From: Candidatus Adlerbacteria bacterium
GTDB lineage: Bacteria > Patescibacteriota > Minisyncoccia > Phycocordibacterales > SBAW01
DNA: 64,000 nt
Assembly: GCA_003135635.1 (NCBI GenBank)
Contig: PLCJ01000001.1
Location: 8,836 to 72,835, forward strand
Reading direction: 5' to 3'
Shown: positions 8,768 to 50,419 of the stretch, piece after piece
Layout: each line of letters starts with the position of its first letter
How positions within the stretch are numbered: the stretch's first letter is position 1
Translations under genes and position numbers: made by a program
Notes under the pieces: generated by a model
What the model was told of the DNA's origin: nothing
The model's input: only the letters and a program-made list of their open reading frames with translations
Databases searched by the model: none

Positions 8768-8770
8768 ACG

Positions 8771-9322: not shown

Positions 9323-9324
9323 AG

Positions 9325-9987
9325 TTATTGAAGAGGAGTAGTTGTGGCGGGAAGGATAGGAATAGAAGAGGAAGCAATGGGTTGTACATTTTGGTTAGAA
9401 GTTGCACCAGTGATAAGCTTGTTGCTGTAAAGAAGGAGAGCCTGGCTAACGTTTGTACTCAGGGTAAAAACCACCTGTCCGGATGTGTTGGTATTAATAT
9501 TAGAGAAAATGATATTTTTGAGCATATTGCTGCTGCCGAACTGGTCGCTTTGAAGCGCAAGAGTCGAAAAGGAATCCGCAATGCCCTGCAAGGTGACAAG
9601 TGCGGAACCATTAGGTTGTAGTTGATAATTAAAACTTGTAAATTGGACGTTTAATAGTGTCTGCTGCGAGAGAAAATCAAAAAGAGCAGAGGGAGCCACA
9701 TGCCCGGCAAGCAAAATCTTTGCCTGCAGTATCCGGTTATCCATGCGAACAAGATCATTAATGGAAGAAAGATCAATTGCGCTTTGGTCTTTTTGCAGTA
9801 CAGCGCTTTTATTTGCAATAGATTGGTTCAGATACTGCTCATACCCAAATACCAGCCCAGCTGCAACTAGTGATACTATGAAAATTAACAGCGCAATTAA
9901 AAACAAAAGCCCCGCTCCTTCTCCATGAGAAGGACCCGGAGTAAAAGATTTTTTCGGTATAAAGGACGCGGGAGCTTGAGGATCCAT
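9325..9987 (-). CDS. pilN: PilN-like pilus assembly protein
   Basis: Short cytoplasmic N-term, single TM (LLFLIALLIFIVSLVAAGLVF), follows pilM. Confidence 0.6.
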   Translation of the reverse strand: MDPQAPASFIPKKSFTPGPSHGEGAGLLFLIALLIFIVSLVAAGLVFGYEQYLNQSIANKSAVLQKDQSAIDLSSINDLVRMDNRILQAKILLAGHVAPSALFDFLSQQTLLNVQFTSFNYQLQPNGSALVTLQGIADSFSTLALQSDQFGSSNMLKNIIFSNINTNTSGQVVFTLSTNVSQALLLYSNKLITGATSNQNVQPIASSSIPILPATTTPLQ

Positions 9988-10037
9988 CAGTATTAGTATA
10001 CCGTTAAAAATTCCACAACTGCGGATCTATCAACAGA

Positions 10038-11117: not shown

Positions 11118-11233
11118 CAGGGAGTAGTATACCACTGTGTAGAAAGAGATTTGTGGCTCTAGGGCCTTCTGGTGTATACGTTTTCCGTCAGACTGAGTAT
11201 CTGGTACATTTATGAAGCAAAGGAAAGAATTAC

Positions 11234-11785
11234 GTGGTTGTTTCGTCATTACCTATGGAGCATAAAGATAAAGAAGAGGAGTTTCGGGAGGTATTCGAAA
11301 AACACTCAGATGAGTTATTTCGGCACTGCCACCTGCGCCTCTCTGATCGAGAGCGAGCGGTCGAGCTCACGCAGGAGACCTTCCTGCGGGCGTGGGAGTA
11401 CGTCTCCAAAGGAAATGTGGTTAAAAATTATCGACCTTTTCTCTATCGCATTCTCAACAACCTTGTTGTAGACGAATACCGTAAGAAAAAATCTCAGTCA
11501 CTGGATGCCCTTCTTGAAGATGAAGAAACAGTGGTTTCAATCGAAGGAGAATTTCTGCGGGATGAATCCGATGCGCTTGAAGCCGCTATGATTCGGTTTG
11601 ATGCGGCTCATGCTATTGAGGCTCTAAAAAAACTTCCCCAGCAGTATCAGGTTGTTCTTATTATGCGCTACGTTGATGGCTTTTCTTCTACGGAAATTGC
11701 CGCATATATGAAAGAAAAAGAAAACGCGATCGCGGTGCGCATCCACCGGGGCCTTCGGAAACTACGCGATATGCTTGAACTATAA
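11234..11785 (+). CDS. ECF-type RNA polymerase sigma factor (sigma-70 regions 2 and 4)
   Basis: ETFLRAWEYVSKG region 2; VVLIMRYVDGFSSTEIAAYM...RIHRGLRKLRDML region 4; alternative start at 11255 (MEHKDKEE). Confidence 0.85.
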   Translation: MVVSSLPMEHKDKEEEFREVFEKHSDELFRHCHLRLSDRERAVELTQETFLRAWEYVSKGNVVKNYRPFLYRILNNLVVDEYRKKKSQSLDALLEDEETVVSIEGEFLRDESDALEAAMIRFDAAHAIEALKKLPQQYQVVLIMRYVDGFSSTEIAAYMKEKENAIAVRIHRGLRKLRDMLEL

Positions 11786-27972: not shown

Positions 27973-28044
27973 GCGCGAGTAGCTCAATGGTAGAGCATCC
28001 GTCTTATACACGGACGGCTCCTGGTTCGAGTCCAGGCTCGCGCA
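27973..28044 (+). tRNA. tRNA with anticodon UAU (tRNA-Ile(UAU)-like)
   Basis: GCGCGAG acceptor, D-arm GCTCAATGGTAGAGC, anticodon arm TCCGT-CTTATAC-ACGGA (U33, anticodon TAT, A37), T-arm CCTGGTTCGAGTCCAGG, 3' CTCGCGC+A; followed by CC. Confidence 0.8.
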
Positions 28045-28073
28045 CCGGAGGTTTAGCAGTATACTAATGTCGT

Positions 28074-36207: not shown

Positions 36208-36558
36208 ATGGCACGCGTAAAAGGAGGAAAAACATCAAGTAAACGACGCCGCAACGTGCTTCGTATGGTGAAGGGATACCGCTTTGCCCGCAGTAAAAAG
36301 GAACGCGCGGCGCGAGAAGCGATCTTTCATGCGGGCAAATACGCCTTCGCCCACCGTAGAGACAAGAAAAATGATTTTCGCAAACTCTGGAACGTGCGCA
36401 TCAACGGTGGCCTTGACGCCATGAATACAAAACTTTCCTATAGTAAACTCATCAATGCCCTGAAGGTAAAAAAGGTATTGGTAAACCGCAAGATGCTCGC
36501 GGAGCTTGCCGAGAAGCGGCCGGAGAGCTTTATGCGGATCATTAAACAGGTTTCCTGA
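36208..36558 (+). CDS. rplT: 50S ribosomal protein L20
   Basis: MARVKGGKTSSKRRRNVLRMVKGYRF... Confidence 0.92.
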   Translation: MARVKGGKTSSKRRRNVLRMVKGYRFARSKKERAAREAIFHAGKYAFAHRRDKKNDFRKLWNVRINGGLDAMNTKLSYSKLINALKVKKVLVNRKMLAELAEKRPESFMRIIKQVS

Positions 36559-37192
36559 AAGCCTGATCCGGGGCTTTTTCGTATGGGGCAGGCGCCTCTG
36601 CTGATTGTTCAAAACGAAATGAGGCGCGATTAATTCTGTCTTTATTAACAAGCTCCACGACGCGTTCAACAAGTGCCTTGGGGTCGGTATCAAACACGAT
36701 ACAATCGTTCGGACGATGTCCGTTTCGCAAGATATCTTTAATAACCTCATCCGTTTCCCAGCCTGCTTCATATACACCGATGGGTTTTTGATCTTCAAAC
36801 GCAACCGTAAACTCATGTATTGTGCCGATACGCCCACATCCAAAAAAAAGAGCGTCACACGAACGGGTAAAGACAAGATCTCGGCCAGGATACCCAAAAC
36901 CGGTGTATACAATGACATCCAGATACTCAATAGGAAGGTTATAAGTTTCAATGTGTTCCTTCTCCGAGCTTGCGGGAGAAAAGCCCAACGTAAATCCTCC
37001 AGCCTCTTTTGCTCCCATAGCCGCCCATAGCGGAAATCCCGTGGTAGCCCCGTTTATAAGAATGGCTTTGTGGGAAGCAATTATTTTGCCGAGCTCTATT
37101 CCTTTGTCGTATGCATCGGCGCCACAATGGCCGGTTTCTGCCGCCCCTGAGACACCAAATTTCATCTGGAGGTATTGCTGACTTGTATTCAT
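36542..37192 (-). CDS. TIGR00725/SLOG-family Rossmann-fold protein (LOG-like), unknown function
   Basis: MKFGVSGAAETGHCGADAYDKGIELGKIIASHKAILINGATTGFP. Confidence 0.55.
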   Translation of the reverse strand: MNTSQQYLQMKFGVSGAAETGHCGADAYDKGIELGKIIASHKAILINGATTGFPLWAAMGAKEAGGFTLGFSPASSEKEHIETYNLPIEYLDVIVYTGFGYPGRDLVFTRSCDALFFGCGRIGTIHEFTVAFEDQKPIGVYEAGWETDEVIKDILRNGHRPNDCIVFDTDPKALVERVVELVNKDRINRASFRFEQSAEAPAPYEKAPDQAFRKPV

Positions 37193-37209
37193 ACTGCTTC
37201 TTAAGTCTA

Positions 37210-38592
37210 CTACACCTCTATAGTTACCTTCTCTCCGCGCTCTGGCGTCACTGCTTTAACACCGAGGTAATCCCTGATGCGCTGTGCTAAAAATGCCGAT
37301 GAGGCTGGTTCTCCCATAACCACAAATACTTCTTTGAGTGAGGCATTTCCTTTATTGACGAATTCAAGTAGCGCTTCACCATCCATATGGGCCGAGTAGC
37401 CGTAGATGTGTTCAATTTGGCACTTGACGGGCACACTGCGTCCCATGATCTCTACTTTCTTTGCGCCATCAATGAGCCTGCGGCCGAGACTACCGGCTGC
37501 TTGGTAGCCGACAATAAGAAGTGTTGAGGCGGGGTCGGGTAAAATATGCTCTTCGTGACTTATCACTCGGCCGCCATTGCTCATGCCGGAGCCTGCAATA
37601 ATTATTTTTGGGTTAGGTGCCTGCATAAGAGCGCGCGACTGCTCCATATCTTCAATCCACCGCAACTCAGGAAAAGTAAAAATGTTTTCACCCTTCTCAA
37701 TACGTTTTTCAATATTAGGCGCAAAGTAGGAAGGATACGAGAGATAGGCAGTGGTAATTTTTTGGGCCAAGGGTGAATCAAGGTATACCGGCATTGAGGG
37801 GATCTGTTTTTTCAGCATGAGTGTACGGATATCAAAAAGAAGATCTTGTGTGCGTTCAGTTGAAAAAGCGGGGATAAGAAGCGTGCCGCCTCGTCTTACA
37901 GTATTTTCGATAATATTTTCAAGCTCTTGGCAACTATTCCCGTCCTCGTGGCGCACACGATCACCGTACACGCTTTCCATGACGAGATACTGAACCGCGG
38001 GGAGATCTTCCACAAGAGGAAGGAGCGGCGAATTACCACTGCCGAGGTCGCCGGTAAATACGATACTTCTGCCATCACGGGTAAAGCACGCCATAGAAGA
38101 GCCGAGAATATGCCCGGAGCGAAAAAACTCAAAAGAAACACCTCCCCTGAGCGCTTGCTTAGTGTGAAGAGGTACTGTTTCCCACATCTGGAGCGCTTTA
38201 GTAATATCTTCTTTTCCGTAGAACGGTTCTTTACCCTGGCGCTTGGCGCTGTGGAAGAGAAGTTCAAGCGCATCAAAAAGAAGTGGCTCAGCAATAGCTT
38301 TAGTGGGTTCCGTTGAAAGAATCTTGCCCCGAAAACCGTCGTGCACGAGCTTTGGGATTCGGCCGATATGATCGATATGCGCGTGGGTCACGATAAGAAA
38401 AGAGATGTCTTCAGGTTTATACGGAAACGGTTCCCAATTGAGCGCTTCCGTTTCCAAGGTTCCTTGAGTAAGTCCGCAATCAATAAGAAACTTCGCCTCA
38501 CCGATATCAAATAAAAAATTGGAACCCGTGACGAGTCCCGCTCCGCCGCAAAACGTAATCGTTGAGCGCATACTATTTCCATGGTACAGCAA
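37210..38592 (-). CDS. MBL-fold beta-CASP RNA-metabolising hydrolase (RNase J / CPSF-like)
   Basis: HAHIDHIG metallo-beta-lactamase motif, beta-CASP and RMMBL-like C-terminus; alternative start 38571. Confidence 0.8.
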   Translation of the reverse strand: MLYHGNSMRSTITFCGGAGLVTGSNFLFDIGEAKFLIDCGLTQGTLETEALNWEPFPYKPEDISFLIVTHAHIDHIGRIPKLVHDGFRGKILSTEPTKAIAEPLLFDALELLFHSAKRQGKEPFYGKEDITKALQMWETVPLHTKQALRGGVSFEFFRSGHILGSSMACFTRDGRSIVFTGDLGSGNSPLLPLVEDLPAVQYLVMESVYGDRVRHEDGNSCQELENIIENTVRRGGTLLIPAFSTERTQDLLFDIRTLMLKKQIPSMPVYLDSPLAQKITTAYLSYPSYFAPNIEKRIEKGENIFTFPELRWIEDMEQSRALMQAPNPKIIIAGSGMSNGGRVISHEEHILPDPASTLLIVGYQAAGSLGRRLIDGAKKVEIMGRSVPVKCQIEHIYGYSAHMDGEALLEFVNKGNASLKEVFVVMGEPASSAFLAQRIRDYLGVKAVTPERGEKVTIEV

Positions 38593-38750
38593 ATCCCGCG
38601 TGAGCGGGATTGACTGTCAGACGACGGAAGCAAGTGTCTCTTGTAAAGCTAGGTGGGTACTTTAAGTGAAGCGCCAAGGCGCACCAACAAGATCAAGTTC
38701 CCTAAAACACTTAAGGACATTGCCTCCGCTGTCTACCGTTAATTATACAC

Positions 38751-39335
38751 CTACTCGTCAACGCCAAACCGCTTATAGCTAAACGTGGCATCTTTGCCGA
38801 ACCAGTGCGCTATTTCGTGCTGTGCTTCCTCGGGGGTTTCTGAAGCATGAAGAATATTTGCAACTGCACGTTTTTCGCTGTTTGCAATCGCGGGAGAATC
38901 AATGGAGAAATCACCCCGTATGGTACCCATATCTGCCATATACGGCATGGTTGGTCCTGCAATTTTACGCACCATATCAACCGCATGTACCCCCTCCACC
39001 ACCATGCGAACCAGAGGCGCTGAGGTCATGTAATCGATCACCCATAGGCGTACCATGGGGCCTATTTTTTTTGGATCGTTTGTGCCGAGAACTTCTATAG
39101 GGTCTATCTTGTACTTCTCGTACGTGGCAAGTGTCTTCGTGGCCAACCGCTCGATCCAGGCCGAGTCTTTGGGGTAATGATCATCAATCATCTGCCGAGT
39201 CGGTTCAAACATTTGCAGTGCCACGATTTTAAGATCGCGCTGCTCAAAACGCCGAATAACTTCTCCAATGAGTCCTTTGCGCACACCGTCTGGCTTCAGG
39301 AGCACAAAAGTTTGTTCTCTTTTTAAATCTTTCAT
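38751..39335 (-). CDS. ndk: Nucleoside diphosphate kinase (elongated, 194 aa)
   Basis: TFVLLKPDGVRKGLIGEVIRRFE, catalytic His region; ~50 aa longer than typical Ndk. Confidence 0.88.
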   Translation of the reverse strand: MKDLKREQTFVLLKPDGVRKGLIGEVIRRFEQRDLKIVALQMFEPTRQMIDDHYPKDSAWIERLATKTLATYEKYKIDPIEVLGTNDPKKIGPMVRLWVIDYMTSAPLVRMVVEGVHAVDMVRKIAGPTMPYMADMGTIRGDFSIDSPAIANSEKRAVANILHASETPEEAQHEIAHWFGKDATFSYKRFGVDE

Positions 39336-39340
39336 TGCTC

Positions 39341-39727
39341 CTAGATCATCTTTACTTCAATAGTAACTCCTGAAGGCAGTGAGAGATTGGTCAACGCTTC
39401 AATGACCTTCTGCGATGGATCAAGAATATCTATGAGACGTTTATGCACGCGCATTTCAAACTGCTCGCGGGCGTCTTTGTAAATGAACGTGGAGCGATTC
39501 ACCGTATATTTTTTAATCTCTGTCGGAAGCGGAATAGGGCCGGCGATTTTTGCGTCATAGCGAAGCGCAGTTTCTACAATCTGCTTCACAGACATATCAA
39601 GCACTTTGTGCTCATAGGCGCGCACCTTAATGCGCAGCCGTTGTGGCGGAGCGACGACGGCTACTTTGCGAGGACGCCTGGGCGTTGCCACTTTCTTTTT
39701 CTTTTCTTCTTTTGCGGCTACTGCCAT
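39341..39727 (-). CDS. rpsJ: 30S ribosomal protein S10 with Lys-rich N-terminal extension
   Basis: ...[41 protein letters not shown]; start trimmed to ATG 39727 ([12 protein letters not shown]...). Confidence 0.9.
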
Positions 39728-39737
39728 GACAAAACAG

Positions 39738-40937
39738 CTAGGCAGTGATCTTGGTGATAACGCCTGCGCCGACGGTCTTACCACCTTCGCGCACGGCGAA
39801 GCGCTGCTTTTCTTCAAGCGCAACCGGGGCAACGAGCTTGACCTTAAAGGTAATGGTATCCCCTGGCATGACCATCTCGGTTCCTCCGGGAAGCGTTACT
39901 TCCCCTGTTACATCCGTAGTGCGCAGATAAAACTGCGGTTTGTATCCGGTGAAAAACGGTGTGTGCCTGCCACCTTCCTCTTTGGTAAGAACATATACCT
40001 CTGATTCAAATTCGGTGTGCGGCGTCACTGAACCGGGTTTTGCAAGCACCTGGCCACGATGGATATCTTCTTTTTTAGTGCCACGAAGAAGTACGCCTGC
40101 ATTATCCCCTGCAACACCGGAGTCAAGCTGCTTGTTGAACATTTCAATACCAGTGACTGTAGTTTTTGTCGTTGGCTGAAGACCGACAATTTCTATTTCT
40201 TCACCTACTTTCACTTGCCCGCGTTCAATGCGACCAGTGACGACCGTGCCACGGCCTTCAATTGAGAAGATGTCTTCAATCGGCATGAGAAATGGCTTGT
40301 CTAACTCGCGCTGCGGAAGCGGAATATAGCTATCAAGCGTCTTTACGAGCTCAAGCACCTTCTGAGATGCTTCGCTGTTTATATCTTTTGATTCAAGTGC
40401 CTTCAGGCCCGATCCGCGAATGACTGGAGCATCTTTGCCATCAAAGCCTTGTTTGGTAAGAAGATCGCGAACTTCTTCTTCAACGAGATCAATGAGGTCT
40501 TTATCATCCACCATGTCTACTTTGTTTAAGAAAACGACCACCCGAGGCACACCGACCTGTTTTGCAAGCAGAATGTGTTCACGGGTCTGGGGCATAACAC
40601 CATCGGTTGCAGCGACAACCAAAATTGCGCCGTCCATCTGTGCGGCACCGGTAATCATGTTCTTAATGTAGTCGGCGTGGCCTGGAGCATCAATGTGTGC
40701 GTAGTGGCGCTCTGGAGTCCAGTACTCAGAGTGGTGAAGTGCAATAGTAATACCGCGCGCTTTTTCCTCAGGCGCGTTGTCGATACCCTCAACTCCCTCT
40801 ACGCGTGCGCCATAGCCCTGGTCTTTGGCCATATCAAGCGTATGGAGAATTGCCGCGGTAAGAGTAGTCTTTCCGTGGTCAACGTGGCCAATGGTGCCGA
40901 CGTTTACGTGAGGCTTGGTGCGTTCAAATGTTGCCAT
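39738..40937 (-). CDS. tuf: Elongation factor Tu
   Basis: [44 protein letters not shown]. Confidence 0.97.
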
Positions 40938-41178
40938 ATCTATAACTAATACTAAGTAATAATGTGCACAATATTGATGTTCTCAAAAGAAAAACCACGC
41001 ACGGATGCGTTGCTTCCTATAGTAGCCGAGGAGCAAGAAAGAGTCAATAACTATATAGCAATCCACTGAAGGGAGTTTGACAAAAGAGTGGGGATGGTGT
41101 ATAAGGAACATAGATGTTTGTGGGGCAAATCTGCACCGCATTCACAATCACTCCACTCCCTACCTAAGGAGGTAGAGA

Positions 41179-41724
41179 ATGAACAATCTCCAACGGCTTG
41201 TCCTGCTAATCGCAGTGGCGAGCGGTGGGCTCGTTGCCTGCACAGGAGGAGGTAGCGGAGGTGGAGGATTTAACCCTACCCCACTGCCGGTGTCTCCGAC
41301 GCCAATGATCACACCCAAGTCCTTCAATGGATTTGATCTCACGGTGTTGGGTAGTGGAAGCCTCGCCGTGGATTACATCCTCACGGGGTCCTATGCCCAG
41401 CAAGTCCCGGCAGCGGATGTCGGGAAGGGAGTCACCTGCGTTCAATCAAACGGGCAGAATTACCTCCAGGGAGCAAGTTTGCATCTTGCTGTCGGGGGAG
41501 AATTGAACGACCCCGACGCTTCGTCAACGGGCTATATCGTGGAGCTGACCGCCAGCTCCGGAGGAAACATTCCCGCAAACGTACAGGTGAAGTGTCAGAT
41601 GAAGCTCAATGACGGCACGGTGATTACCCCCTTCTCCGCGTCCTACGAGACCTGGACGACCGCAGTCCCTTCCGGCTGGACGGAGACGAACGACACTCCG
41701 AGCACGGCAACAGCCGCGCTTTAA
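41179..41724 (+). CDS. Predicted lipoprotein, unknown function; GC-rich relative to neighbours
   Basis: Signal + lipobox LLIAVASGGLVAC; strong SD AAGGAGG 7 nt upstream; codons end mostly in G/C, unlike flanking genes. Confidence 0.7.
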   Translation: MNNLQRLVLLIAVASGGLVACTGGGSGGGGFNPTPLPVSPTPMITPKSFNGFDLTVLGSGSLAVDYILTGSYAQQVPAADVGKGVTCVQSNGQNYLQGASLHLAVGGELNDPDASSTGYIVELTASSGGNIPANVQVKCQMKLNDGTVITPFSASYETWTTAVPSGWTETNDTPSTATAAL

Positions 41725-41730
41725 TTCCCA

Positions 41731-41790
41731 AAACACGAGAGCCCGTTCCGACGCACAGATTGTGCATCGGCGCGGGCTCATTTTTTATAT
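41731..41790 (+). terminator. Rho-independent terminator
   Basis: GAGCCCG...CGGGCTC stem with internal palindrome, followed by ATTTTTTAT. Confidence 0.65.
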
Positions 41791-41796
41791 AACTAA

Positions 41797-42687
41797 TCAG
41801 TGAGAAGAAAGGGTGGAGTCATTGCTCTGACTAGGAAGTGCACGAATAGCAGTGAGAAAATCGTTGAAGTGTTGCGCCAAAATTGGCTGGCCCGTTACTA
41901 AGTTCTTTGTCCAACTAAATTCAGGTAGCCCGCATTGCGTATATATTGCATTTACTGCGTCTCGTAAAGCTATGTAGTGGGCAGCTCTAATTACAGTATT
42001 GCCTGATACGAGTTCTGTGGGCTCTCCCCCATTTATTGCCAGTGGATCAGTATTCCCAAAGCTGTCTAGGTCAAGGTGTGTACCCGTTACCTGAAAATAC
42101 AGCTGTATTATCGCAGCACGGAGATCTGTAACCCCAGCTGCATATATGGGTGTGCCCAGAGATACGCTTGGGGGCAATGAGACAGAAAATAAGCTGCAAT
42201 TACTTCCTGCCACCGTATAGGTTGCTGTTGCAGTAAGTCCATAGGACTCTGCGCTTACTGTATAGGTACCCGGAGTATCTGGAGCATTAAACGTCGTACT
42301 GTAAAGAAATCCTCCTCCAGTATCTACAGTTTGATCGGAGGGATCTCCCGGGGCCGCTAGAATTAAAATACCATCAAACGCATCTCCAGTAATAGGACTG
42401 AGTGGAATTATTCCACTAATTGTAACGGTTTCCCCTGGTGCATACGCTGATTTGTCCGTACTCACAGTGGTACACTGTATATCTTTATACTCAATAATTT
42501 TCTCATCAGAGGTATAGCCCGGTAAATCAGCATTGGTATAATAGATCGTTGTGCAGGAAGAGCCAAACGTGCCATTATTTCGTGAAGCATTAACACTGTG
42601 AGAAGAAAAAGAAAATATCACACTAAAGACTGCTACAAAAAGAAGAGCGAATTTGAAAAAGGTTGAAGTTGCTGAGATTTGTTTCAT
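41797..42687 (-). CDS. Secreted protein, unknown function
   Basis: Signal peptide MKQISATSTFFKFALLFVAVFSVIFSFSSHSVNA; Thr/Gly-rich beta domain; start trimmed to ATG 42687. Confidence 0.6.
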   Translation of the reverse strand: MKQISATSTFFKFALLFVAVFSVIFSFSSHSVNASRNNGTFGSSCTTIYYTNADLPGYTSDEKIIEYKDIQCTTVSTDKSAYAPGETVTISGIIPLSPITGDAFDGILILAAPGDPSDQTVDTGGGFLYSTTFNAPDTPGTYTVSAESYGLTATATYTVAGSNCSLFSVSLPPSVSLGTPIYAAGVTDLRAAIIQLYFQVTGTHLDLDSFGNTDPLAINGGEPTELVSGNTVIRAAHYIALRDAVNAIYTQCGLPEFSWTKNLVTGQPILAQHFNDFLTAIRALPSQSNDSTLSSH

Positions 42688-42723
42688 ATAATCGCCAAGT
42701 TTAGTCATAAAAAATTTTTCTAC

Positions 42724-44028
42724 TCATAGCTCTACATGATGCATTCCATGCTTCAGTGCAAAAAATGCACCAAGAAGGATAAGAAGCACTAGAATAAACG
42801 CAAATAATTCGGTATTTGCTTTGCTCCATGGCAAAGTATTTATCGGAGGATGTGCGCTTATAACGATTAGCATTTTGTGAGCATATACATTTCCCGTTCC
42901 GTCTGTTATGGAAGCCGTAACTGTAGGGCTTATACATGTCGCTGTTATTTGCATGGGCACGACAATCTGAATGCTACTTGAGCTAGTTATTGTTTGTGAC
43001 ACGGGCGCGGCGCACGAGAATCCTTTTCCATCTACAAGAGAGAGGCCGAGATAGGCTTCTCGTGCAGTAGATCCGCTAAAAAAGTCAGGAGAGAGTGTCC
43101 AGGTGACGGTGGCAGTTGCAACATCACCTCTAGCATACATATCTTTATCAAGAACAAGATCTTCTATCGTTGCAGAAGGTCCGCTTACCTGATAAAGGAA
43201 AAAGGTAGGATTTGAAACTATGCTACCGGCACTATCAGCAAAGCTTAATTTAGCTTCATACAGCTGAGGCATTTGAGGTACGAGCAATAGGAAAGAAACC
43301 GAGTGCAGGGCGCCAGGAGAAAAAACACTTCCCTGCTGTGCAGAAGGTGCGGCTGTCACCATTTGACCGAACTGACTTTGATAAAATGTCTCAACGACAG
43401 GTGAGAGCGTTTGCACAGACGTAAAATGGCTTTGCACCTGACAGGTCGCACGAAGTATGTCCGTGGAGGATACTCCTATTCTCTGCTGAGGCAGATAATG
43501 TGTAGTACTTGTCCCTACGGTAAGAAAGCAGGTCGAAGGAAGAATTGTTGCATATCCCTGATTAGATGCTGGCACAATTATCTTCCCAGCAAAGGCAACC
43601 CCAAGTGGAAGTCCACTGCTTGTACGGGCTTCTATAACAATTTGATATGTGCCGGATAGATAGGGAGGAATCGGATATGAAATACTGCGGCCGATGGATT
43701 GATTGGCAGAGAGAGAAAGAGTTTCATTTGCAACGCTGGTATCAACAATTTGCTGCGGTGTTCCTTTTTGTGTTGATAGGACATCGATACCGTAGCGAAT
43801 ATCCGGCTGCGCAGTATCGCTATTTTGTAGCGCAAAAGTAACGGTGAGAATCCCGCCACTTAGCTGTGCATTCGCGGCATGAATCGATACCGTGGAAATG
43901 GTGGCTTGCTCTGTAGAAGTACTCACTGCGGCAAAAGCTGTCGAAGAGTAAGAAAGAGCAATTAACAAAATCGCTGCCGCGCCAAGATGCTTAAACACAA
44001 ACGTAATAAGGGGATAGGGCTTTTTCAT
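42724..44028 (-). CDS. Secreted protein with C-terminal membrane anchor, unknown function
   Basis: N-terminal signal (AAILLIALSYSSTAFA), C-terminal LFAFILVLLILLGAFFALKH helix; start trimmed to ATG 44028. Confidence 0.6.
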   Translation of the reverse strand: MKKPYPLITFVFKHLGAAAILLIALSYSSTAFAAVSTSTEQATISTVSIHAANAQLSGGILTVTFALQNSDTAQPDIRYGIDVLSTQKGTPQQIVDTSVANETLSLSANQSIGRSISYPIPPYLSGTYQIVIEARTSSGLPLGVAFAGKIIVPASNQGYATILPSTCFLTVGTSTTHYLPQQRIGVSSTDILRATCQVQSHFTSVQTLSPVVETFYQSQFGQMVTAAPSAQQGSVFSPGALHSVSFLLLVPQMPQLYEAKLSFADSAGSIVSNPTFFLYQVSGPSATIEDLVLDKDMYARGDVATATVTWTLSPDFFSGSTAREAYLGLSLVDGKGFSCAAPVSQTITSSSSIQIVVPMQITATCISPTVTASITDGTGNVYAHKMLIVISAHPPINTLPWSKANTELFAFILVLLILLGAFFALKHGMHHVEL

Positions 44029-44035
44029 TTGAATT

Positions 44036-44383
44036 CTATTGATAGACGATGCCCGCGGTTGAAGGAGAACATATAATATTTCCTTGTGCATCTGTGGCGA
44101 GATTAGTGCAGTTTTGTATTGGTATCAACTCAACACTACCTTGACGCACAATAAGAGCTTGGGCCTGTACGCCCCCTGCGTTTAGCTCTACACCACCCTG
44201 TTTTATTTGCCAGCTGGAACCAACATTTAAGGGAGCCGGGGTGTTGCCACCTGGAGCTTGGGCGGTAGGAGGATTCCACACACCGGAGTCAGCAGAGACG
44301 ATATTAGCGAAAAGCACGGCACCGCCAAGGGCAAGAAAAACAACTGCGGCCTGAGTTAGTATGGCTTTTAATTCTATTTTCAT
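44036..44383 (-). CDS. Small secreted protein (116 aa)
   Basis: Signal peptide AVVFLALGGAVLFANIVSA; Gly-rich; start trimmed to ATG 44383. Confidence 0.55.
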   Translation of the reverse strand: MKIELKAILTQAAVVFLALGGAVLFANIVSADSGVWNPPTAQAPGGNTPAPLNVGSSWQIKQGGVELNAGGVQAQALIVRQGSVELIPIQNCTNLATDAQGNIICSPSTAGIVYQ

Positions 44384-44428
44384 ACTCTGTGATTCCTTAA
44401 TTACACCTAATAATATCACTTTCCCACA

Positions 44429-45490
44429 CTATAACTCTCTATACGAAGGTATGAGGGTAATACTCACACTTGAAGTATAGGGAGCTCCGTTTGAATCCGT
44501 GCACGTTAAAGTATATATCGCCTTTTGGGTAATGGGTTTAGTGGTAAACTCCGAATTCCCCGAAAGAGTCCCTCTGTCAGCATTTGTGGCAGAGATAGAG
44601 CATGAACTTAGATTAACATTTGACAAATTGACCCCATACAGGTTGACCTTCGATTGAGCAGTAACAAGTGCGCTTTCAACACATGAGGATTGTTTCGTAC
44701 TGAGACAGCCACTAGCAGAAGGGGGTATGCATTGGCCCGTGCTTTGATTGCATCCATCATTACAAGCAGTAACCGCTACTTGATTTGGATCGGTGGTACA
44801 TTCACTGCTACCGTCTGGAGAACAGGTACACCCCGTAATGCATTCCCCCGTACCTTGATTGCAGCCCAGTGGACAATCTGTTGTTGTTGTATTTCCTTGG
44901 GTGTCTGTGGTCTGACTATTATTGCTGTCAATGCAGATATGGGTGTTGGGGGTCGCATACACTCCGCTAAATGATACCCAGCCAACGACATTTCCTCCCC
45001 ATGCAAACCCACTCAATACGCCATCCTGTGCAGTAAGGCCGTCCCCATAGCCAGTGCTGCCAAGATCGATCCATCCATCCCATCCATCAGTACGGCCAAT
45101 AGCTGAGATCGCCCGTGCCCATCCCGTAACAGTGCCATCTCTAGCAACTTTTCCCTGACAACTACTCCCTTGGGGGACAGGGCATCCTTGCACATCATTG
45201 TAGTTGAAACTCACCCAACCGATGTTGCTGCTCCAGGCATAACCGCTTAATGTTCCCGTAGGGAATCCGGAGGAAATGACGTCGTAATTACTTGTTCCGC
45301 ACACATTACTTTGTCCTGGACCGCCCTCCTCGCAGTTTAAGCTTATCCATCCGATATTACTGCTCCATGCATAACCTCCAATTGGGGTTGGGGGAACAGC
45401 GAAAGCATGCACTCGTGAAGATAGAGCGACTATAGACACAAAAACCAGAAGGAGGGACAGTAGAAACCACCACCGGCCGAAAATATTCAC
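44429..45490 (-). CDS. Secreted repeat protein: three G[YF]AW[SG][SG]N[IV][GV]W[IV]SF motifs + Cys-rich C-terminal modules
   Basis: Signal peptide; GYAWSSNIGWISLN / GYAWSSNIGWVSFN / GFAWGGNVVGWVSFS; CPLGCNQGTGECITGC and CNDGCNQSTGQCIP modules. Confidence 0.65.
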   Translation of the reverse strand: MNIFGRWWFLLSLLLVFVSIVALSSRVHAFAVPPTPIGGYAWSSNIGWISLNCEEGGPGQSNVCGTSNYDVISSGFPTGTLSGYAWSSNIGWVSFNYNDVQGCPVPQGSSCQGKVARDGTVTGWARAISAIGRTDGWDGWIDLGSTGYGDGLTAQDGVLSGFAWGGNVVGWVSFSGVYATPNTHICIDSNNSQTTDTQGNTTTTDCPLGCNQGTGECITGCTCSPDGSSECTTDPNQVAVTACNDGCNQSTGQCIPPSASGCLSTKQSSCVESALVTAQSKVNLYGVNLSNVNLSSCSISATNADRGTLSGNSEFTTKPITQKAIYTLTCTDSNGAPYTSSVSITLIPSYREL

Positions 45491-45544
45491 TCCCCAATTA
45501 TACTTGGGTAGAAGGTATGAAGGAGCGCGGTTATCAACAACGAC

Positions 45545-47689
45545 CTATTTTCTCTCAGCCACTATTGCTGCCGAAACACTGGGCGGCACCACCTCATAAT
45601 GGTCAAATTCCATAGTAAAACTTGCCCGTCCCTCAGTCATTGAGCGCAGCACGGTCGTATAGCCGAACATCTCCGCAAGAGGGACGGTTGCTCTAATAGC
45701 TCGGGCAAGCCCCCGCTCTTCGGTCCCCTCTATCTGACCGCGCCTTCCGTTGAGGTTGCCCGTAACGTCACCCATAAACTTTTCAGGCGTCACGACTTCT
45801 ACCTTCATGACAGGCTCAAGCAAGACTGGCTTAGCAGCTTTTGCCGCGTCCTGGAAGCCCATTGAAGCCGCAATTTTAAAAGCGATTTCTGAGGAATCTA
45901 CATCGTGATAGGAGCCATCGTAGAGTTCAACGGAAATATCAACGAGCTTAAAGCCCGCAACGATGCCTCGCTCCATTGCCTCGCGTACTCCTTTTTCAAC
46001 TGCAGGTATGTACTCCTGAGGAATCACTCCTCCTTTGATGTTATTGATGAATTCAAAGTGATCCTCCCGAGTAATGTTTTTGCGCACCTTTGCTCCCTCC
46101 ACAATTTTCTCAAGAGGTTTTATGCGCAGCCGTACATGACCATACTGTCCGCGGCCGCCTGTTTGTTTTATATATTTCCCTTCCGCCTCAGCCTCTTTTT
46201 GTATAGTTTCGCGATACGCCACCTGCGGCTTGCCGACATCAGCCTCAACGTTAAATTCGCGTTTCATGCGATCAACCAAAATTTCCAAGTGGAGCTCCCC
46301 CATGCCCGCAATAAGAGTCTCGAGAGTCTCCGCATCAGTTGAAACTTTAAACGTAGGATCTTCATCGGAGAGTTTCTTCAGAGCAATACCCATTTTTTCC
46401 TGGTCTGCTTTGGTCTTGGGTTCAATGCGCATAGAAATAACTGGTTCGGGAAAGTGTATTTGCTCAAGGATAATGGGATTATTCTCATCACAAAGTGTAT
46501 GGGAAGTTTTGGTGTTTTTGAGGCCCACCGCCGCAGCAATCTCTCCGGAGTACACCGTCTTTACTTCTTCGCGCTGGTCAGCTTGCAGGCGCACGATGCG
46601 TCCCACTCGCTCTTTCTCTCCCGTGGTCGAGTTATAAACATAGGAACCCGCTTCAACAATGCCCGAATACACACGGAAAAACGTGAGCTGCCCCACAAAG
46701 GGATCCGCTTGGAGTTTAAAAGCAAGCGCACAAAAGGGCTCAGAGTCAGACGCATGGCGTTCCACCTCTTTGCCATCTTTTGGATTAATGCCCTTAACTG
46801 GTGGCATATCAAGAGGAGAAGGCAAATAGTCTACAACCGCGTCAAGCACGAGCTGCACCCCTTTGTTTTTAAGCGCGGAGCCGGTGTAAACGGGAAAGAT
46901 CTTGTTATCTATGACCGCTCCCCGAAGGGTGGCATTGAGCTCTTCAAGACTCGGCTCTTTACCGTCAAGGTAGCTGGTCATGAGTGCATCATTGTGCTCG
47001 ACAATTCTTTCGACGAGCTCAGCGCGATACTTGGTGGCGTCAGGGAGATATGCCTCTGGAATAGCAAATTCGATGACCGCATCACCCATATTCCCCTCAA
47101 AGCGGTAGGCTTTCATTTTCAAAAGATCAATCACGCCTTCAAACTTCTCTTCAGCGCCAATAGGGATTTGCATGCGTACGGCGCTCTTGCTCAAGCGATC
47201 AAGAATAGAGTGAAAGGATTTCTCAAAGGATGCACCGGTGCGATCAAGTTTGTTGATGAAACACACCCGCGGCACTTTCGCTTCGTCGGCATAGCGCCAG
47301 TTGGTCTCCGACTGCGGTTCAACGCCGGCAACACCATCAAATACAACGATTGCCCCATCGAGCACTCGCATAGAGCGCTTTACTTCAGCGGTAAAATCAA
47401 TATGCCCCGGGGTATCGATAATATTGAAACGGTATTTCTTAGACGCATCTTTTTTATCCTGCTCCTCAGTCTTTGACCAAAAACAAGTAATCGCAGCGGC
47501 AGTGATAGTAATACCTCGCTCCCTCTCCTGCTCCATCCAGTCAGTGGTGGTCTCCCCTTCATGCACCTCACCGATTTTGTGCTGCGACCCTGTGTAGTAC
47601 AAAACACGCTCAGACGTGGTCGTCTTGCCCGCGTCGATGTGCGCGATGATGCCGAAATTGCGAACTTTTTGAAGTGGGTAGTCTCTCAT
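45545..47689 (-). CDS. fusA: Elongation factor G
   Basis: [33 protein letters not shown]; 714 aa. Confidence 0.97.
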
Positions 47690-47769
47690 AAAATGTGGTC
47701 AAAAAAAACCGCCCGAGGCGTAGCTGTAGAGTACTGCAAAATCACAAAAAATGCAAAAGAAATGAGCCG

Positions 47770-48780
47770 CTAAAGATCAAGAATATGCCGCGCAAGTAGT
47801 GTGGAATCGTGACGAATAAGATCCTGCACAAGACCAGGCTTGCTTAAGAAATCCGCGCACACAATTTTTTCCGACCGCAAACGCACCCGCTCCTCAGCCC
47901 CCGCATCAAAGACAACCGGGAATGCTTTTTCTTTCGCCTGGTATGCCTGAAGCAACTTCTTCGGGATCACTCCACTATTAACGAGTACCGCGTCAAGACA
48001 ATCTCTCCCGATACCATAGGCAAAGAGCGTTTCAACAAAATCCGCAACGCTAAAATCTCTCGTTTCGGCATACTTCGTCATAATATTTGCAACGTATATA
48101 ACTCGCGCGGAGGAATCATGAATTGCTTCTGCGGCTCCCTCTACCAGAAGATTTGGGATAATGGAGGTGTAGAGGTCGCCCGGTCCCAACACAATGAGAT
48201 CGGCTTTCTGTATTGCCTCAGCTGCTTCACGGCAGATAAGCGCAGAGGGCTGAAGTGATACACGCACAATAGTGCGCGTATCATTGTACCCGCGCGTATC
48301 AATCGCTCCTTCACCTTCCAGAGAAGAGCCGTCGGAGAGCTCCGCCACCAAAGTAGCGTGATCTATTGAAATCGGCAGTACTTCTCCGTGGGCATCAAGG
48401 AGCCTGCTTATCCGACGAATGCCTTCAATCGGTCCCCACAATTGCTCCGCGGCAAGTAGCAGCACATTGCCTACGTTGTGTTCGGAAAGTCCCGAACCAT
48501 TTCCTTGAAAACGGTGGCTAAAAATTTCTCGCAGAGTATCGTACTCATCATTTGCCAGTGCCAAGATACACCGGCGAATATCTCCTTGGGGCAGTGAACC
48601 AAATTCATCGCGCAGCTTCCCAGTGCTCCCGCCGCTGTCAAACACCGTACAAATCGCCGTCGGTCGGCCAGGATACCGGTTGAGCCCGCGATTGACTATA
48701 AACCCACCGCTTCCGCCGCCGATGGTCACAATCCTTCGCTCTAATATGTGGGAGCTGCCCTGCATGCCTTTAGGATACAA
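47770..48780 (-). CDS. yvcK: YvcK/CofD-like (UPF0052, gluconeogenesis factor family) protein
   Basis: IVTIGGGSGGFIVNRGL, FDSGGSTGKLRDEFG motifs. Confidence 0.8.
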   Translation of the reverse strand: MYPKGMQGSSHILERRIVTIGGGSGGFIVNRGLNRYPGRPTAICTVFDSGGSTGKLRDEFGSLPQGDIRRCILALANDEYDTLREIFSHRFQGNGSGLSEHNVGNVLLLAAEQLWGPIEGIRRISRLLDAHGEVLPISIDHATLVAELSDGSSLEGEGAIDTRGYNDTRTIVRVSLQPSALICREAAEAIQKADLIVLGPGDLYTSIIPNLLVEGAAEAIHDSSARVIYVANIMTKYAETRDFSVADFVETLFAYGIGRDCLDAVLVNSGVIPKKLLQAYQAKEKAFPVVFDAGAEERVRLRSEKIVCADFLSKPGLVQDLIRHDSTLLARHILDL

Positions 48781-48809
48781 CTATATACCTCCCCCTCGTG
48801 GTCACAGAA

Positions 48810-49280
48810 CTACCACGCAAAGTGCGCAAACGCTTTGTTCGCTTCAGCCATTTTATGCGTATCTTCGCGCTTTTTTACCGCCACTCCTTCATTATTGGAA
48901 GCCGAAAGAATTTCTTCAGCAAGACGTTTATGCATTGCCATGCCTTTGCGCGAACGGGCTGCGGTTAAAATCCATCGAAACGCAAGTGCTTGTTTGCGCT
49001 CAGAGCGGACTTCCCTTGGCACTTGATAGTTAGCACCCCCGACTCGGCGAGAGCGAATTTCCATAGTGGGACTTACATTGCGCAGCGCCGTTTCAAACAC
49101 TTCAACCGGATTTTCAACCTTTGCTTTCTCTTTGATCAGGTCAAATGCGTCATACACCACCTTGCGTGCAGTTGATTTCTTTCCATCCAACATCACCGAA
49201 TTGATAAATTTTTCAACCCGAAGTGATTGGTACTTGAGGTCAGGTTTAAGTTCGTGTTTTTTCTTAAGAGGTCTGCGCAT
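48810..49280 (-). CDS. rpsG: 30S ribosomal protein S7
   Basis: [26 protein letters not shown]. Confidence 0.95.
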
Positions 49281-49285
49281 ATGTC

Positions 49286-49702
49286 TTACTTATTTTTGGG
49301 CTTCTTACCCCCATAGCGGCTGCGAGAAACCCGCCGCTTCTCAAGGCCGGAAGCATCCAGACGGCCACGCACCACTTGATAGCGGACGTTAATATCTTTC
49401 ACCCGACCCGCGCGCACCATAACCACGGAGTGTTCCTGGAGATTATGGGTCTCGCCAGGAATATACGCAGTAATTTCTTGTCCGTTCGTGAGACGCACCC
49501 GAGCAATTTTTCGAATGGCAGAGTTTGGTTTGCGCGGTGTTTTGGTAGTCACCTTAGTACACACACCGCGTTTAAAGGGCGATGGGTAAAAAACAGGACG
49601 GTTTTTAACTGCATTAAAACCACGCCCGAGCGCCGGCGCTTTTGATTTTGATTTAATCATTCCCTTACGTCCGCTGCGAACTAGTTGTGAGATACGTGCC
49701 AT
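49286..49702 (-). CDS. rpsL: 30S ribosomal protein S12
   Basis: [15 protein letters not shown]...[29 protein letters not shown]. Confidence 0.95.
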
Positions 49703-49774
49703 ATTTTCTTAAATAAAATGCCCGCTGAGGTGCGTGCTTGCGCAGTGTACTATAGGCATACTGCTGACGCAACT

Positions 49775-50419
49775 CTACACAGCAACTCCAGTCAAAAGCG
49801 AAAATAGCCAGGAGAGAGCTGCGGTAAAAAAAGGAGAAAGCGCATAAAAAATAATAAGTATGAGAAGCATGCCAGGAAGGAGTCCGATGCGTTCAAAATT
49901 GCTGCGAAACATGGCGTAGGTCTGGGAAAGCCCCGAAGGCAATATGCCGGAAAGTACTTTGGAGCCATCAAAGGGTGGTATAGGGATGAGGTTAAAGAGA
50001 GCAAGAAGCATGTTGATATAAACAATGGCAGCAAACGCGCTTAGCATGGGTGCGCTCATTGCCACTGCTCCAAAACGAATGGTGAGGCCGAATATAAGCG
50101 CGATGCAAATGTTTGTCCCTGGCCCCGCAAATGCGACCAGCGTTTCGTCATACCGGCCAGGTAAATTATCAGGATTGTATGGTACTGGTTTTGCGTAGCC
50201 GATCAGTATAGGAGAGCCGGTCAACCCTAAGAAAAGGGGCAAAATGATCGAGCCGATGGGATCAATATGTGGAAGAGGGTTTAGAGTAAGTCGGCCCATA
50301 AGTCTTGCGGTCGGATCTCCCAACATATCTGCAACGTACCCATGAGCGACTTCATGGAGAATGACGGAAACAATAAGCACCACAAGCCCGAATACAATTT
50401 CTATTTGCATAATGTACAA
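49775..50419 (-). CDS. Site-2 protease family (M50) intramembrane zinc metalloprotease
   Basis: HEVAHG (HExxH) in TM1, NLIPIPPFDGSKV (LDG) motif; alternative start 50410. Confidence 0.8.
   Translation of the reverse strand: MYIMQIEIVFGLVVLIVSVILHEVAHGYVADMLGDPTARLMGRLTLNPLPHIDPIGSIILPLFLGLTGSPILIGYAKPVPYNPDNLPGRYDETLVAFAGPGTNICIALIFGLTIRFGAVAMSAPMLSAFAAIVYINMLLALFNLIPIPPFDGSKVLSGILPSGLSQTYAMFRSNFERIGLLPGMLLILIIFYALSPFFTAALSWLFSLLTGVAV

What the first reader, a model, noticed from the sequence alone, without database searches (positions are those of the whole stretch)
41179..41790. GC-rich lipoprotein gene with consensus expression signals: probable horizontal acquisition
The 546-nt ORF is visibly richer in G+C than flanking genes, with third-position G/C codons (CTC, ACG, GGG, GCC, CTG). 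It has a perfect AAGGAGG SD, a TTGACA-17-TATAAG promoter and a clean terminator. It is the only plus-strand gene in a 10 kb minus-strand run. The lipobox LVAC, the Gly linker and a small beta domain suggest an exported lipoprotein of foreign origin captured in the island.
Basis: seen in the sequence. Interest (0 to 1): 0.55.

Follow-up and report, generated by a model that had tools for sequence, protein, structure and literature searches.

The report
Swappable GC-rich lipoprotein gene beside tuf
This is a real gene for a surface lipoprotein with no known relatives, sitting in a conserved slot next to the elongation-factor gene tuf in a tiny uncultured (Patescibacteria) bacterium; relatives carry different but equally GC-rich lipoprotein genes in that slot, so its odd composition is a long-standing feature of a variable surface-protein island and not the mark of a single recent foreign capture.

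Summary
ORF 41179-41724 (+, 181 aa) has the highest GC (58.1% vs mean 47.0%) and GC3 (64.8% vs 44.7%) of 65 window ORFs. It has a lipobox (LVAC, Cys21), Gly and Pro linkers, AAGGAGG, TTGACA-17-TATAAG and a strong terminator.

The protein is an orphan: it matches only itself among 5.8 billion proteins and 1.84 billion HMMER-scanned representatives, so no donor can be named.

The gene is not a lone insert. It lies in a five-gene secreted-protein island between fusA and tuf of an Adlerbacteria-like Patescibacterium. Three relatives (L003, L020, L007) carry, in the same position, orientation and spacing (238-241 nt from tuf, invariant TTGACAAA), a GC-rich lipoprotein gene with the same N-terminal layout. 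Their mature domains are unrelated or very divergent.

L003 and L020 are 98.8% identical up to codon 48 of the gene, then about 50%. A near-identical strain (L002) matches the window at 99.97% up to tuf nt 577, differs about 10% (mostly synonymous) up to the tuf ATG, and is unrelated beyond.

So this is the variable cargo of a conserved lipoprotein expression slot in an island replaced by recombination. Why the cargo stays GC-rich while its neighbours are GC-poor is unexplained.

The parts
41077..41105 (+). Promoter-like site of the lipoprotein gene: TTGACA (41077-41082), 17-nt spacer, TATAAG (41100-41105)
   Evidence: Read. The -35 block TTGACAAA is invariant in window, L003, L020 and L007. 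The consensus scanner did not call it because the last -10 base is G.
41106..41178 (+). 5' UTR with a C-rich tract and the Shine-Dalgarno AAGGAGG (41166-41172), 6 nt before the ATG
   Evidence: The C-rich tract (CCCTnCC) before the SD is shared with L003/L020.
41179..41241 (+). Signal peptide with lipobox L-V-A-C; the lipidated Cys21 codon is 41239-41241
   Evidence: Translation: n-region with Arg6, hydrophobic core LVLLIAVASGGLV, lipobox LVAC. It is the only lipobox ORF found by regex in the 64-kb window.
41245..41316 (+). Gly/Ser linker (residues 23-30) and Pro-rich linker (33-46). In L003/L020 the recombination breakpoint lies at the end of the equivalent segment
41317..41724 (+). Mature cargo domain (residues 47-181, two Cys) plus the stop codon; an orphan sequence; GC3 rises to 0.82 in the last quarter of the gene
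   Evidence: No homologs. No Pfam, NCBIfam, PHROG or PADLOC family. GC3 by quarter.
41739..41787 (.). Hairpin terminator shared by the two convergent genes: stem 41739-41780, T-run 41782-41787 on the + strand, U-rich tail on the - strand
   Evidence: -30.5 kcal/mol, z -6.6. (minus strand -40.1 kcal/mol, z -6.0).
40997..41047 (-). tuf leader that shares the 241-nt divergent intergenic region: TTGACT-17-TACTAT (41047-41019), then a small hairpin plus T-run (41010-40997)
   Evidence: The block is conserved in all relatives.
41797..45490 (-). The four co-directional island genes for secreted or membrane proteins (303, 455, 127 and 353 aa), GC3 0.33-0.42
   Evidence: Homologs occur in the same order in L003 and L007.
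40361..40937 (-). The 5' 577 nt of tuf, carrying 58 of the 59 differences to the near-identical strain L002 (49 synonymous and 5 nonsynonymous codons): a recombination boundary

Best explanation
The ORF is a real, probably strongly expressed gene for a membrane-anchored surface lipoprotein of an Adlerbacteria-like Patescibacterium. It occupies a conserved slot, transcribed divergently from tuf, at the edge of a five-gene island of secreted proteins that interrupts the str operon between fusA and tuf.

The slot has a conserved front module: promoter, 5' UTR, signal peptide with lipobox, and Gly and Pro linkers. Behind it is a variable cargo, the mature domain plus terminator.

The island and the cargo are exchanged between lineages by homologous recombination anchored in conserved sequence, namely tuf and the front module of the lipoprotein gene. 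This is how replacement flexible genomic islands for exposed cell structures behave.

The cargo in this genome is one orphan allele. Its composition (58% GC, GC3 0.65) is normal for sister lineages of 55-61% GC, and I take such a GC-richer gene pool as the most likely source.

Shown: the anatomy, the outlier composition, the conserved slot in four lineages, the mosaic breakpoints, and the lack of homologs. Inferred: lipidation and surface exposure, high expression, a role in contact with a host or with phage, and the GC-rich pool as the cause of the composition.
For: Composition: GC and GC3 rank 1 of 65; GC3 lies 5.7 sampling SDs above expectation from amino-acid content.

Real gene: lipobox, SD, promoter and terminator; no Rfam or tRNA hit; identical in an independent assembly.

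Conserved slot: L003/L004, L020/L021 and L007 carry opposite-strand lipoprotein genes 238-241 nt from the tuf ATG, with invariant TTGACAAA and the same SP-lipobox-Gly-Pro layout. Their GC3 is 0.661, 0.560 and 0.589, against neighbour GC3 of 0.30-0.42. The other island genes are homologous and in the same order.

Variable cargo: the mature domains of window, L003 and L007 show no detectable similarity (Smith-Waterman shuffle z about 0).

Recombination: L003 vs L020 are 98.76% identical over 2,666 nt up to codon 48, then about 50%. That junction is seen in two independent contigs (L020, L021). The neighbour gene is only 47% identical in protein. Window vs L002: one mismatch in 3,272 nt, then 58 in the first 577 nt of tuf (49 synonymous, 5 nonsynonymous), then no similarity. 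This matches the boundary signature described in PMC4033161.

Possible source pool: relatives with 90-92% identical EF-Tu have 55-61% GC (L005, L009, L024). The L024 gene in the equivalent position has GC3 0.669, which is native there.

Ancestral state: L008 has fusA directly next to tuf.
Against: No homolog of this cargo exists in any GC-rich genome searched, so the source pool is inferred from composition alone.

The GC-rich cargo / GC-poor neighbour contrast is kept in two deeply diverged alleles (L003 vs L020/L021). A single donor genome would be expected to homogenise adjacent genes, so this favours a gene-intrinsic cause over donor composition.

The overall codon-usage distance is only z -1.9.

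L002 is a 4.2-kb metagenome contig and could be an assembly chimera that switches inside tuf.

Lgt and LspA were not found, though only 10 other window ORFs were scanned.

The 181-aa and 184-aa cargos could be orthologs that have diverged beyond detection instead of replacements.
Confidence: 0.5

Rival explanations
1. Vertical, fast-evolving ortholog with an intrinsic GC-raising force. The slot gene was present in the common ancestor of these lineages. Its mature domain diverged beyond recognition under diversifying selection. Its GC3 is kept high by a gene-specific process, such as GC-biased gene conversion at a recombination hot spot, or selection on the mRNA.
For: Slot, orientation, spacing, promoter and N-terminal layout are conserved. 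The GC-rich cargo / GC-poor neighbour contrast recurs in every allele, including two deeply diverged ones. tuf four-fold sites are near saturation between lineages (0.55-0.59), so a neutral ancestral GC3 would have decayed and something must maintain it. Recombination-associated GC enrichment is documented in bacteria (PMC4450053). The neighbour 303/356/475-aa proteins are themselves barely recognisable as homologs, so a slightly faster-evolving gene would be undetectable.
Against: Cargo sizes fall into two classes (181/184 aa vs 385/397 aa). The adjacent island genes lie in the same variable tract but are GC-poor, which a regional gBGC effect does not explain. The L003/L020 breakpoint is abrupt (98.8% to about 50% within 100 nt), indicating replacement and not gradual divergence.
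Confidence: 0.3
2. One reading: a single recent capture of a foreign lipoprotein gene, with its own promoter and terminator, from a distant GC-rich donor into a pre-existing island.
For: Outlier GC and GC3. A self-contained expression unit on the opposite strand. Absent from the near-identical strain L002. A homolog of the L003-type cargo lies beside transposase and integrase fragments in L022.
Against: The same slot holds GC-rich lipoprotein genes in three other lineages, with conserved promoter and spacing. No homolog in any taxon, phage, plasmid or viral contig. No flanking repeats, IS ends, integrase or tRNA. In L002 the whole upstream region differs, not just this gene.
Confidence: 0.1
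3. Artefact: not a gene (a chance ORF in GC-rich DNA, or an RNA element), or a chimeric assembly joining DNA from another organism.
For: GC-rich DNA yields long chance ORFs: antisense ORFs of 79 and 85 aa overlap it. It is an orphan protein with a low-confidence structure model.
Against: Canonical signal peptide and lipobox, SD at 6 nt, conserved promoter, terminator. Positional counterparts in relatives. No Rfam hit. An independent assembly is 100% identical across both junctions.
Confidence: 0.03

Closest known systems
Replacement flexible genomic islands (López-Pérez, Martin-Cuadrado and Rodriguez-Valera 2014, PMC4033161); classic examples from general knowledge are O-antigen and capsule loci flanked by conserved genes
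   Same: Same chromosomal position in related strains but different or very divergent genes. The genes encode exposed or secreted proteins. There are no integrase or tRNA hallmarks. The boundary in a conserved flanking gene carries a peak of mostly synonymous substitutions (tuf: 49 synonymous, 5 nonsynonymous). Composition is atypical relative to the core genome.
   Different: The island sits inside the str ribosomal-protein/elongation-factor operon, with tuf itself as the recombination anchor. The host is a Patescibacterium. One gene of the island is GC-rich while the rest are GC-poor. Classic examples are glycosylation clusters and are usually uniformly low in GC (my own knowledge).
Variable surface lipoprotein systems with a conserved 5' module (Mycoplasma Vlp/Vsa, Borrelia Vmp/VlsE expression sites); comparison from general knowledge, not tested against sequences
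   Same: A conserved promoter/5' UTR/lipoprotein signal peptide is joined to a highly variable mature domain. The mosaic junction lies just after the signal peptide/linker (L003 vs L020).
   Different: No silent cassettes or similar copies in the 64-kb window. No invertible element or inverted repeats. No tandem repeats in the mature domain. The variation seen is between strains and lineages, not shown within a clone.
Compositionally atypical, horizontally acquired ORFan genes
   Same: GC and GC3 outlier, no homologs, self-contained expression signals.
   Different: A positional counterpart with the same layout exists in relatives. No mobility hallmarks. The outlier composition is shared by all alleles of the slot.

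Membership tests
Bacterial lipoprotein (Lgt/LspA substrate) | Positively charged n-region, hydrophobic h-region, and lipobox [LVI][ASTVI][GAS]C with the Cys within about 15-35 residues of the start | tested here: met
   MNNLQR-LVLLIAVASGG-LVAC, Cys21 (regex scan)
Bacterial lipoprotein (Lgt/LspA substrate) | The genome encodes Lgt and signal peptidase II | tested here: inconclusive
   Not among the 18 window ORFs scanned with Pfam. The window is only 64 kb of a contig of at least 263 kb.
Bacterial lipoprotein (Lgt/LspA substrate) | Lipid modification and membrane anchoring shown experimentally | not testable with these tools
   Needs biochemistry or metaproteomics.
Replacement flexible genomic island | Same position between conserved core genes in related genomes, with different or highly divergent genes of a similar functional class | tested here: met
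   fusA-[island]-tuf in window, L003 and L007. Cargos are unrelated, neighbours 21-47% identical, all with signal peptides. L008 lacks the island.
Replacement flexible genomic island | A boundary peak of mostly synonymous substitutions in the flanking core gene between otherwise near-identical strains | tested here: met
   58 of 59 mismatches lie in tuf nt 1-576, 49 synonymous and 5 nonsynonymous; 1 mismatch in the next 3,272 nt. Caveat: L002 is a short metagenome contig.
Replacement flexible genomic island | No integrase, tRNA or IS hallmarks of additive islands | tested here: met
Recently acquired foreign gene (compositional/phyletic criteria) | Atypical GC/GC3 | tested here: met
   Rank 1 of 65, z 3.2-3.6; z 5.7 against expectation from amino-acid content.
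Recently acquired foreign gene (compositional/phyletic criteria) | Closest homologs in a different taxon (an identifiable donor) | tested here: not met
   Only self-hits. Nothing in phages, plasmids or viral contigs.
Recently acquired foreign gene (compositional/phyletic criteria) | Slot empty in close relatives | tested here: not met
   The slot is occupied by analogous GC-rich lipoprotein genes in L003, L020 and L007. Only L002 differs, and there the whole upstream region differs.
Expression-site antigenic variation (pilE/pilS, vlsE, vlp-like) | Silent donor cassettes or paralogous copies in the same genome | tested here: not met
   blastn and tblastn of the gene against the window return only the gene itself. 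Limited to 64 kb.
Expression-site antigenic variation (pilE/pilS, vlsE, vlp-like) | Conserved 5' expression/export module joined to a variable mature region | tested here: met
   L003 vs L020: 98.8% identity through codon 48, then about 50%.
Diversity-generating retroelement target | A template repeat similar to a variable region, plus a reverse transcriptase nearby | tested here: not met
   No second copy of any part of the gene in the window. No reverse transcriptase among the genes called around it.

The most novel reading that the evidence does not exclude
Adlerbacteria-like Patescibacteria may have a dedicated lipoprotein display site next to tuf. In this reading, the conserved promoter, signal peptide and Gly/Pro-linker module acts as a recombination landing pad. 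Unrelated cargo domains from a clade-wide, compositionally distinct (about 57% GC) gene pool are swapped in behind it. This would be population-level surface variation of an episymbiont, using one of the most conserved genes in biology (tuf) as the homology anchor. The persistent GC-richness would then mark either that shared pool or biased gene conversion at the hot spot.
Probability: 0.2. Interest if true: 0.65.

Novelty: new variant of a known kind. Interest (0 to 1): 0.42.

Why it matters
Patescibacteria are thought to live attached to other cells, and their surface proteins are almost entirely uncharacterised. A hypervariable island of secreted proteins embedded in the str operon, with a conserved lipoprotein expression module carrying swappable orphan cargo, is a concrete candidate locus for host or phage interaction and for strain-level diversification in these organisms. 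It is also a caution for methods. A GC/GC3 outlier with perfect expression signals looked like a textbook recent transfer, but comparison with relatives shows the atypical composition is an old, shared property of the slot. The unexplained contrast between GC-rich cargo and GC-poor neighbours inside one exchanged island is a small natural test case for separating donor composition from biased gene conversion.

Tried and rejected
- **Homolog searches for the target.** The 5.8-billion word-indexed search and the 1.84-billion exhaustive HMMER search found only the protein itself. One further weak hit, P0122, is a repetitive 1,176-aa protein matching only the signal/linker region and is spurious. 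Phages, plasmids, viral contigs and PDB sequences gave nothing.
- **Family libraries.** Pfam, NCBIfam, PHROGs and PADLOC gave no family. The NCBIfam 'fusolisin' match (18 bits, cutoff 999) covers the signal peptide only.
- **Structure.** AlphaFold2 on the single sequence gave pLDDT 31.6, so I ran no fold search.
- **RNA gene.** No Rfam or tRNA hit.
- **Translational selection.** Rejected as the cause of high GC3. The codon choice is a general GC3 shift and fits the highly expressed gene set worse than an average gene does.
- **A motif seen by eye.** 'DAS-x-TGY ... IPA ... C' between the window and L007 cargos was rejected by a shuffle test (z 0.3).
- **Neighbour as anchor.** The 303-aa neighbour found no close relatives in the genome or metagenome collections. 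The 455-aa family profile found loci mostly in other genomic contexts, which did not inform on the slot.
- **Other flank of the L002 strain.** A search through the CofD-like protein returned only the same genome.
- **Other mechanisms.** No silent cassettes, DGR repeats or flanking direct or inverted repeats.
- **Lgt/LspA.** Not found among the ORFs scanned.

Full report
**1. The observation**

The ORF at 41179-41724 (+) is 546 nt and encodes 181 aa from an ATG. Among 65 non-overlapping window ORFs of at least 80 aa it has the highest GC (0.581; mean 0.470, sd 0.031, z 3.6). It also has the highest GC3 (0.648; mean 0.447, sd 0.063, z 3.2).

Given its amino-acid composition and the window's codon usage, the expected GC3 is 0.445 +/- 0.036, against 0.650 observed. 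The excess is therefore synonymous and is not a by-product of the Gly/Pro/Ala/Thr-rich protein.

The codon choices are a general shift to G/C-ending codons: ACG, GTC, CTC, ATC, AAG, TCC. They do not follow the preferences of tuf, fusA and the ribosomal-protein genes. The gene fits that highly expressed model worse than an average gene does (-1.294, against a mean of -1.215 and tuf at -1.062). I therefore reject translational selection as the cause.

Read directly:
- TTGACA at 41077-41082, a 17-nt spacer, and TATAAG at 41100-41105.
- AAGGAGG at 41166-41172, 6 nt before the ATG.

The hairpin 41739-41780 followed by TTTTTT folds at -30.5 kcal/mol (z -6.6). It folds equally well on the other strand, so it can serve both convergent genes.

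The gene is the only plus-strand gene in a minus-strand run from 36542 to 50419. No Rfam family or tRNA lies here. An independent Logan assembly is 100% identical over 20,960 nt spanning both junctions. Only the 'small beta domain' could not be checked, because the AlphaFold2 single-sequence model had pLDDT 31.6.

**2. What the protein is**

The N-terminus is a canonical lipoprotein signal: MNNLQR, a hydrophobic core, and the lipobox L-V-A-C with Cys21. It is followed by a Gly/Ser linker (residues 23-30) and a Pro-rich linker (33-46). The mature part of about 135 residues contains two Cys.

The protein has no family in Pfam, NCBIfam, PHROGs or PADLOC. It has no relative in PDB sequences, phages, plasmids or viral contigs.

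In 5.8 billion proteins it matches only itself. In an exhaustive HMMER scan of 1.84 billion cluster representatives it again matches only itself, plus one spurious repetitive protein.

**3. Context**

The EF-Tu encoded next to the gene is closest to Patescibacteria (Paceibacteria/Adlerbacteria) sequences.

The local gene order is rpsL, rpsG, a CofD-like gene, fusA, then four genes for secreted or membrane proteins (353, 127, 455 and 303 aa, all on the minus strand, GC3 0.33-0.42). The lipoprotein gene follows on the plus strand, then tuf, rpsJ, ndk and RNase J. The gene is therefore the last member of a five-gene island that interrupts the str operon. A relative with 90% identical EF-Tu (L008) has fusA directly next to tuf, so the island is a derived feature of a subclade.

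**4. The slot is conserved and its cargo is not**

L003 is from a Candidatus Adlerbacteria MAG with 92% identical EF-Tu and 48% locus GC. Its four co-directional island genes are homologous to those of the window and in the same order.

Directly upstream of tuf on the opposite strand, L003 has a 397-aa lipoprotein gene. The protein begins MRNLLIGTLLVAALAAC-GGGGSSGGGGS-VLPPPPSTMPP. The gene has GC 0.588 and GC3 0.661.

L007 (EF-Tu 91%, locus GC 44.7%, tuf GC3 0.398) has a 184-aa lipoprotein gene in the same place. The protein begins ..LLLSAC-GGGGGGGTGGGGGG-MPPTPPPP, and the gene has GC 0.568 and GC3 0.589. L020/L021 carry a 385-aa version with GC3 0.560, next to a neighbour gene with GC3 0.301.

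The distance from the tuf ATG to the lipoprotein ATG is 238-241 nt in all four lineages. The -35 TTGACAAA, a TAT at the -10 position, a C-rich tract before the SD and the tuf leader block are invariant or nearly so.

By contrast, the mature domains of window, L003 and L007 show no similarity beyond chance (Smith-Waterman against 2,000 shuffles, z 0.3, 0.0 and -0.2). Synonymous sites of tuf are close to saturation between these lineages (0.55-0.59 differences at four-fold sites). A GC3 excess inherited passively from a common ancestor should therefore have decayed.

**5. Direct evidence of exchange**

Two comparisons show recombination at this locus.

(a) L003 vs L020. These two are 98.76% identical over 2,666 nt covering ndk, rpsJ, tuf, the intergenic region and the first 144 nt (48 codons) of the lipoprotein gene. 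This stretch runs exactly through the Pro-rich linker. Nucleotide identity then falls to about 50%. The cargos are 44% identical in protein, and the next gene is 47% identical. Two independent contigs (L020 and L021) span the junction.

(b) Window vs L002, a JGI contig with 99% identical EF-Tu. There is one mismatch in 3,272 nt (window 37090-40360). Then 58 mismatches fall in the first 577 nt of tuf, as 49 synonymous and 5 nonsynonymous codon changes. Upstream of the tuf ATG there is no similarity at all, and L002 has a co-directional 353-like gene there.

This boundary peak of mostly synonymous substitutions is the signature described for replacement flexible genomic islands exchanged by homologous recombination (PMC4033161). 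One caveat applies: L002 is a 4.2-kb metagenome contig, and an assembler switching between co-occurring populations inside tuf could mimic this pattern.

I found no integrase, IS ends, att-like repeats, tRNA, phage or defence families at the island. There is also no second copy of any part of the gene in the window, which argues against silent cassettes or a DGR template.

**6. Explanation**

The best-supported reading has three parts:
- The gene is the variable cargo of a conserved, divergently transcribed lipoprotein expression slot.
- The slot sits at the tuf edge of a surface-protein island.
- The island is exchanged between lineages by homologous recombination, with tuf and the gene's own front module as anchors.

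Horizontal exchange is therefore real, but it operates at the level of the island and the slot. It is not the capture of one foreign gene.

The cause of the GC-richness is not settled. Two points favour a GC-richer source pool. Equally close relatives have 55-61% GC (L005, L009, L024), and in L024 the secreted-protein gene in the equivalent position has a native GC3 of 0.669. The target's composition would be ordinary there.

One point argues against that view and for an intrinsic force such as biased gene conversion (PMC4450053). The GC-rich cargo / GC-poor neighbour contrast is preserved in deeply diverged alleles that were evidently exchanged together (L003 vs L020/L021).

My estimates are:

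| Explanation | Probability |
|---|---|
| Pool-exchange model | 0.5 |
| Intrinsic-force / vertical model | 0.3 |
| Artefact | 0.03 |

The protein's function is inferred only. It is probably a membrane-anchored, surface-exposed protein held away from the membrane by a flexible Gly/Pro tether, and probably involved in contact with a host cell, a substrate or phage. This rests on its companions (all secreted), its variability and the lifestyle of the phylum.

**7. Comparison with known systems**

The locus behaves like a replacement flexible genomic island, and all three defining features I could test are met. It differs in three ways: its location inside the str operon, its host phylum, and its internally split composition.

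It resembles variable lipoprotein expression sites of Mycoplasma and Borrelia (general knowledge) in having a conserved 5' module and a variable mature domain. It lacks silent cassettes, invertible elements and repeats in the sequence available, so I do not file it there.

It meets the compositional criterion for a foreign gene but fails both the donor-homolog and the empty-slot criteria.

**8. Verdict**

The thing is a new variant of a known kind. It is of moderate interest (0.42), mainly as a candidate host- or phage-interaction locus in Patescibacteria and as an unexplained case of persistent gene-specific GC enrichment.

Noticed in passing
window 40997-41047 (- strand); also L002 300-410, L003 9880-9960, L007, L020, L024: Upstream of tuf there is a sigma-70-like site (TTGACT-17-TACTAT) followed at once by a 5-bp hairpin (ACGCA-loop-TGCGT), GG and a T-run. 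The block CAAAAgAAAAACCACGCACGrATGCGTT is invariant in every relative examined, even where all other upstream sequence differs. It would sit at the extreme 5' end of the tuf mRNA, so it could be a stabilising 5' stem-loop or an attenuator. No Rfam family matches.
   Followed up: partly
window 36542-50419: The str/S10 region is rearranged. A CofD-like gene (47770-48780) lies between rpsG and fusA. The secreted-protein island lies between fusA and tuf. rpsJ is followed by ndk, an RNase J-like beta-CASP nuclease and a SLOG-domain gene instead of rplC. The relatives L008, L006, L009 and L024 keep rpsJ close to rplC.
   Followed up: partly
window 41797-45490 (- strand): The four co-directional island genes all have GC3 below the window mean (0.33-0.42). 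They have signal peptides or membrane anchors but no family assignment. The 455-aa family also occurs in other genomic contexts in more distant Patescibacteria.
   Followed up: partly
window 27973-28046 (+): A tRNA-Ile with anticodon TAT (UAU), an uncommon way to read AUA in bacteria.
   Followed up: no
window about 500-11249: A type IV pilus gene cluster: prepilin peptidase (2252-3106), a pilin with an N-terminal methylation motif (3655-4152) and a PilO-like protein (8771-9322). An ECF-type sigma factor lies at 11234-11785.
   Followed up: no
L022 1-1430 (JGI 3300025703, Ga0208357_1001669): A homolog (40% identity) of the L003-type cargo lacks a signal peptide. It starts two codons after the stop of an upstream ORF ending ..LGMLSPAEFERRNQAA, which looks like a transposase C-terminus. 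It is followed by a phage-integrase fragment, and a DDE transposase-SIR2 fusion lies further on. Its GC3 (0.58) is native to that 54% GC contig.
   Followed up: partly
L012 (CAVTDJ010000011.1, 964-kb contig): A contig titled 'uncultured Alphaproteobacteria bacterium' carries homologs of the 455-, 353- and 127-aa island genes typical of these Patescibacteria. The label may be wrong, or the bin may be mixed.
   Followed up: no
L008 18263-19273: In a relative, a Cas1 gene directly follows the ribosomal protein L5 gene inside the ribosomal-protein cluster. This is another case of foreign-looking genes inserted in core translation operons in this clade.
   Followed up: no
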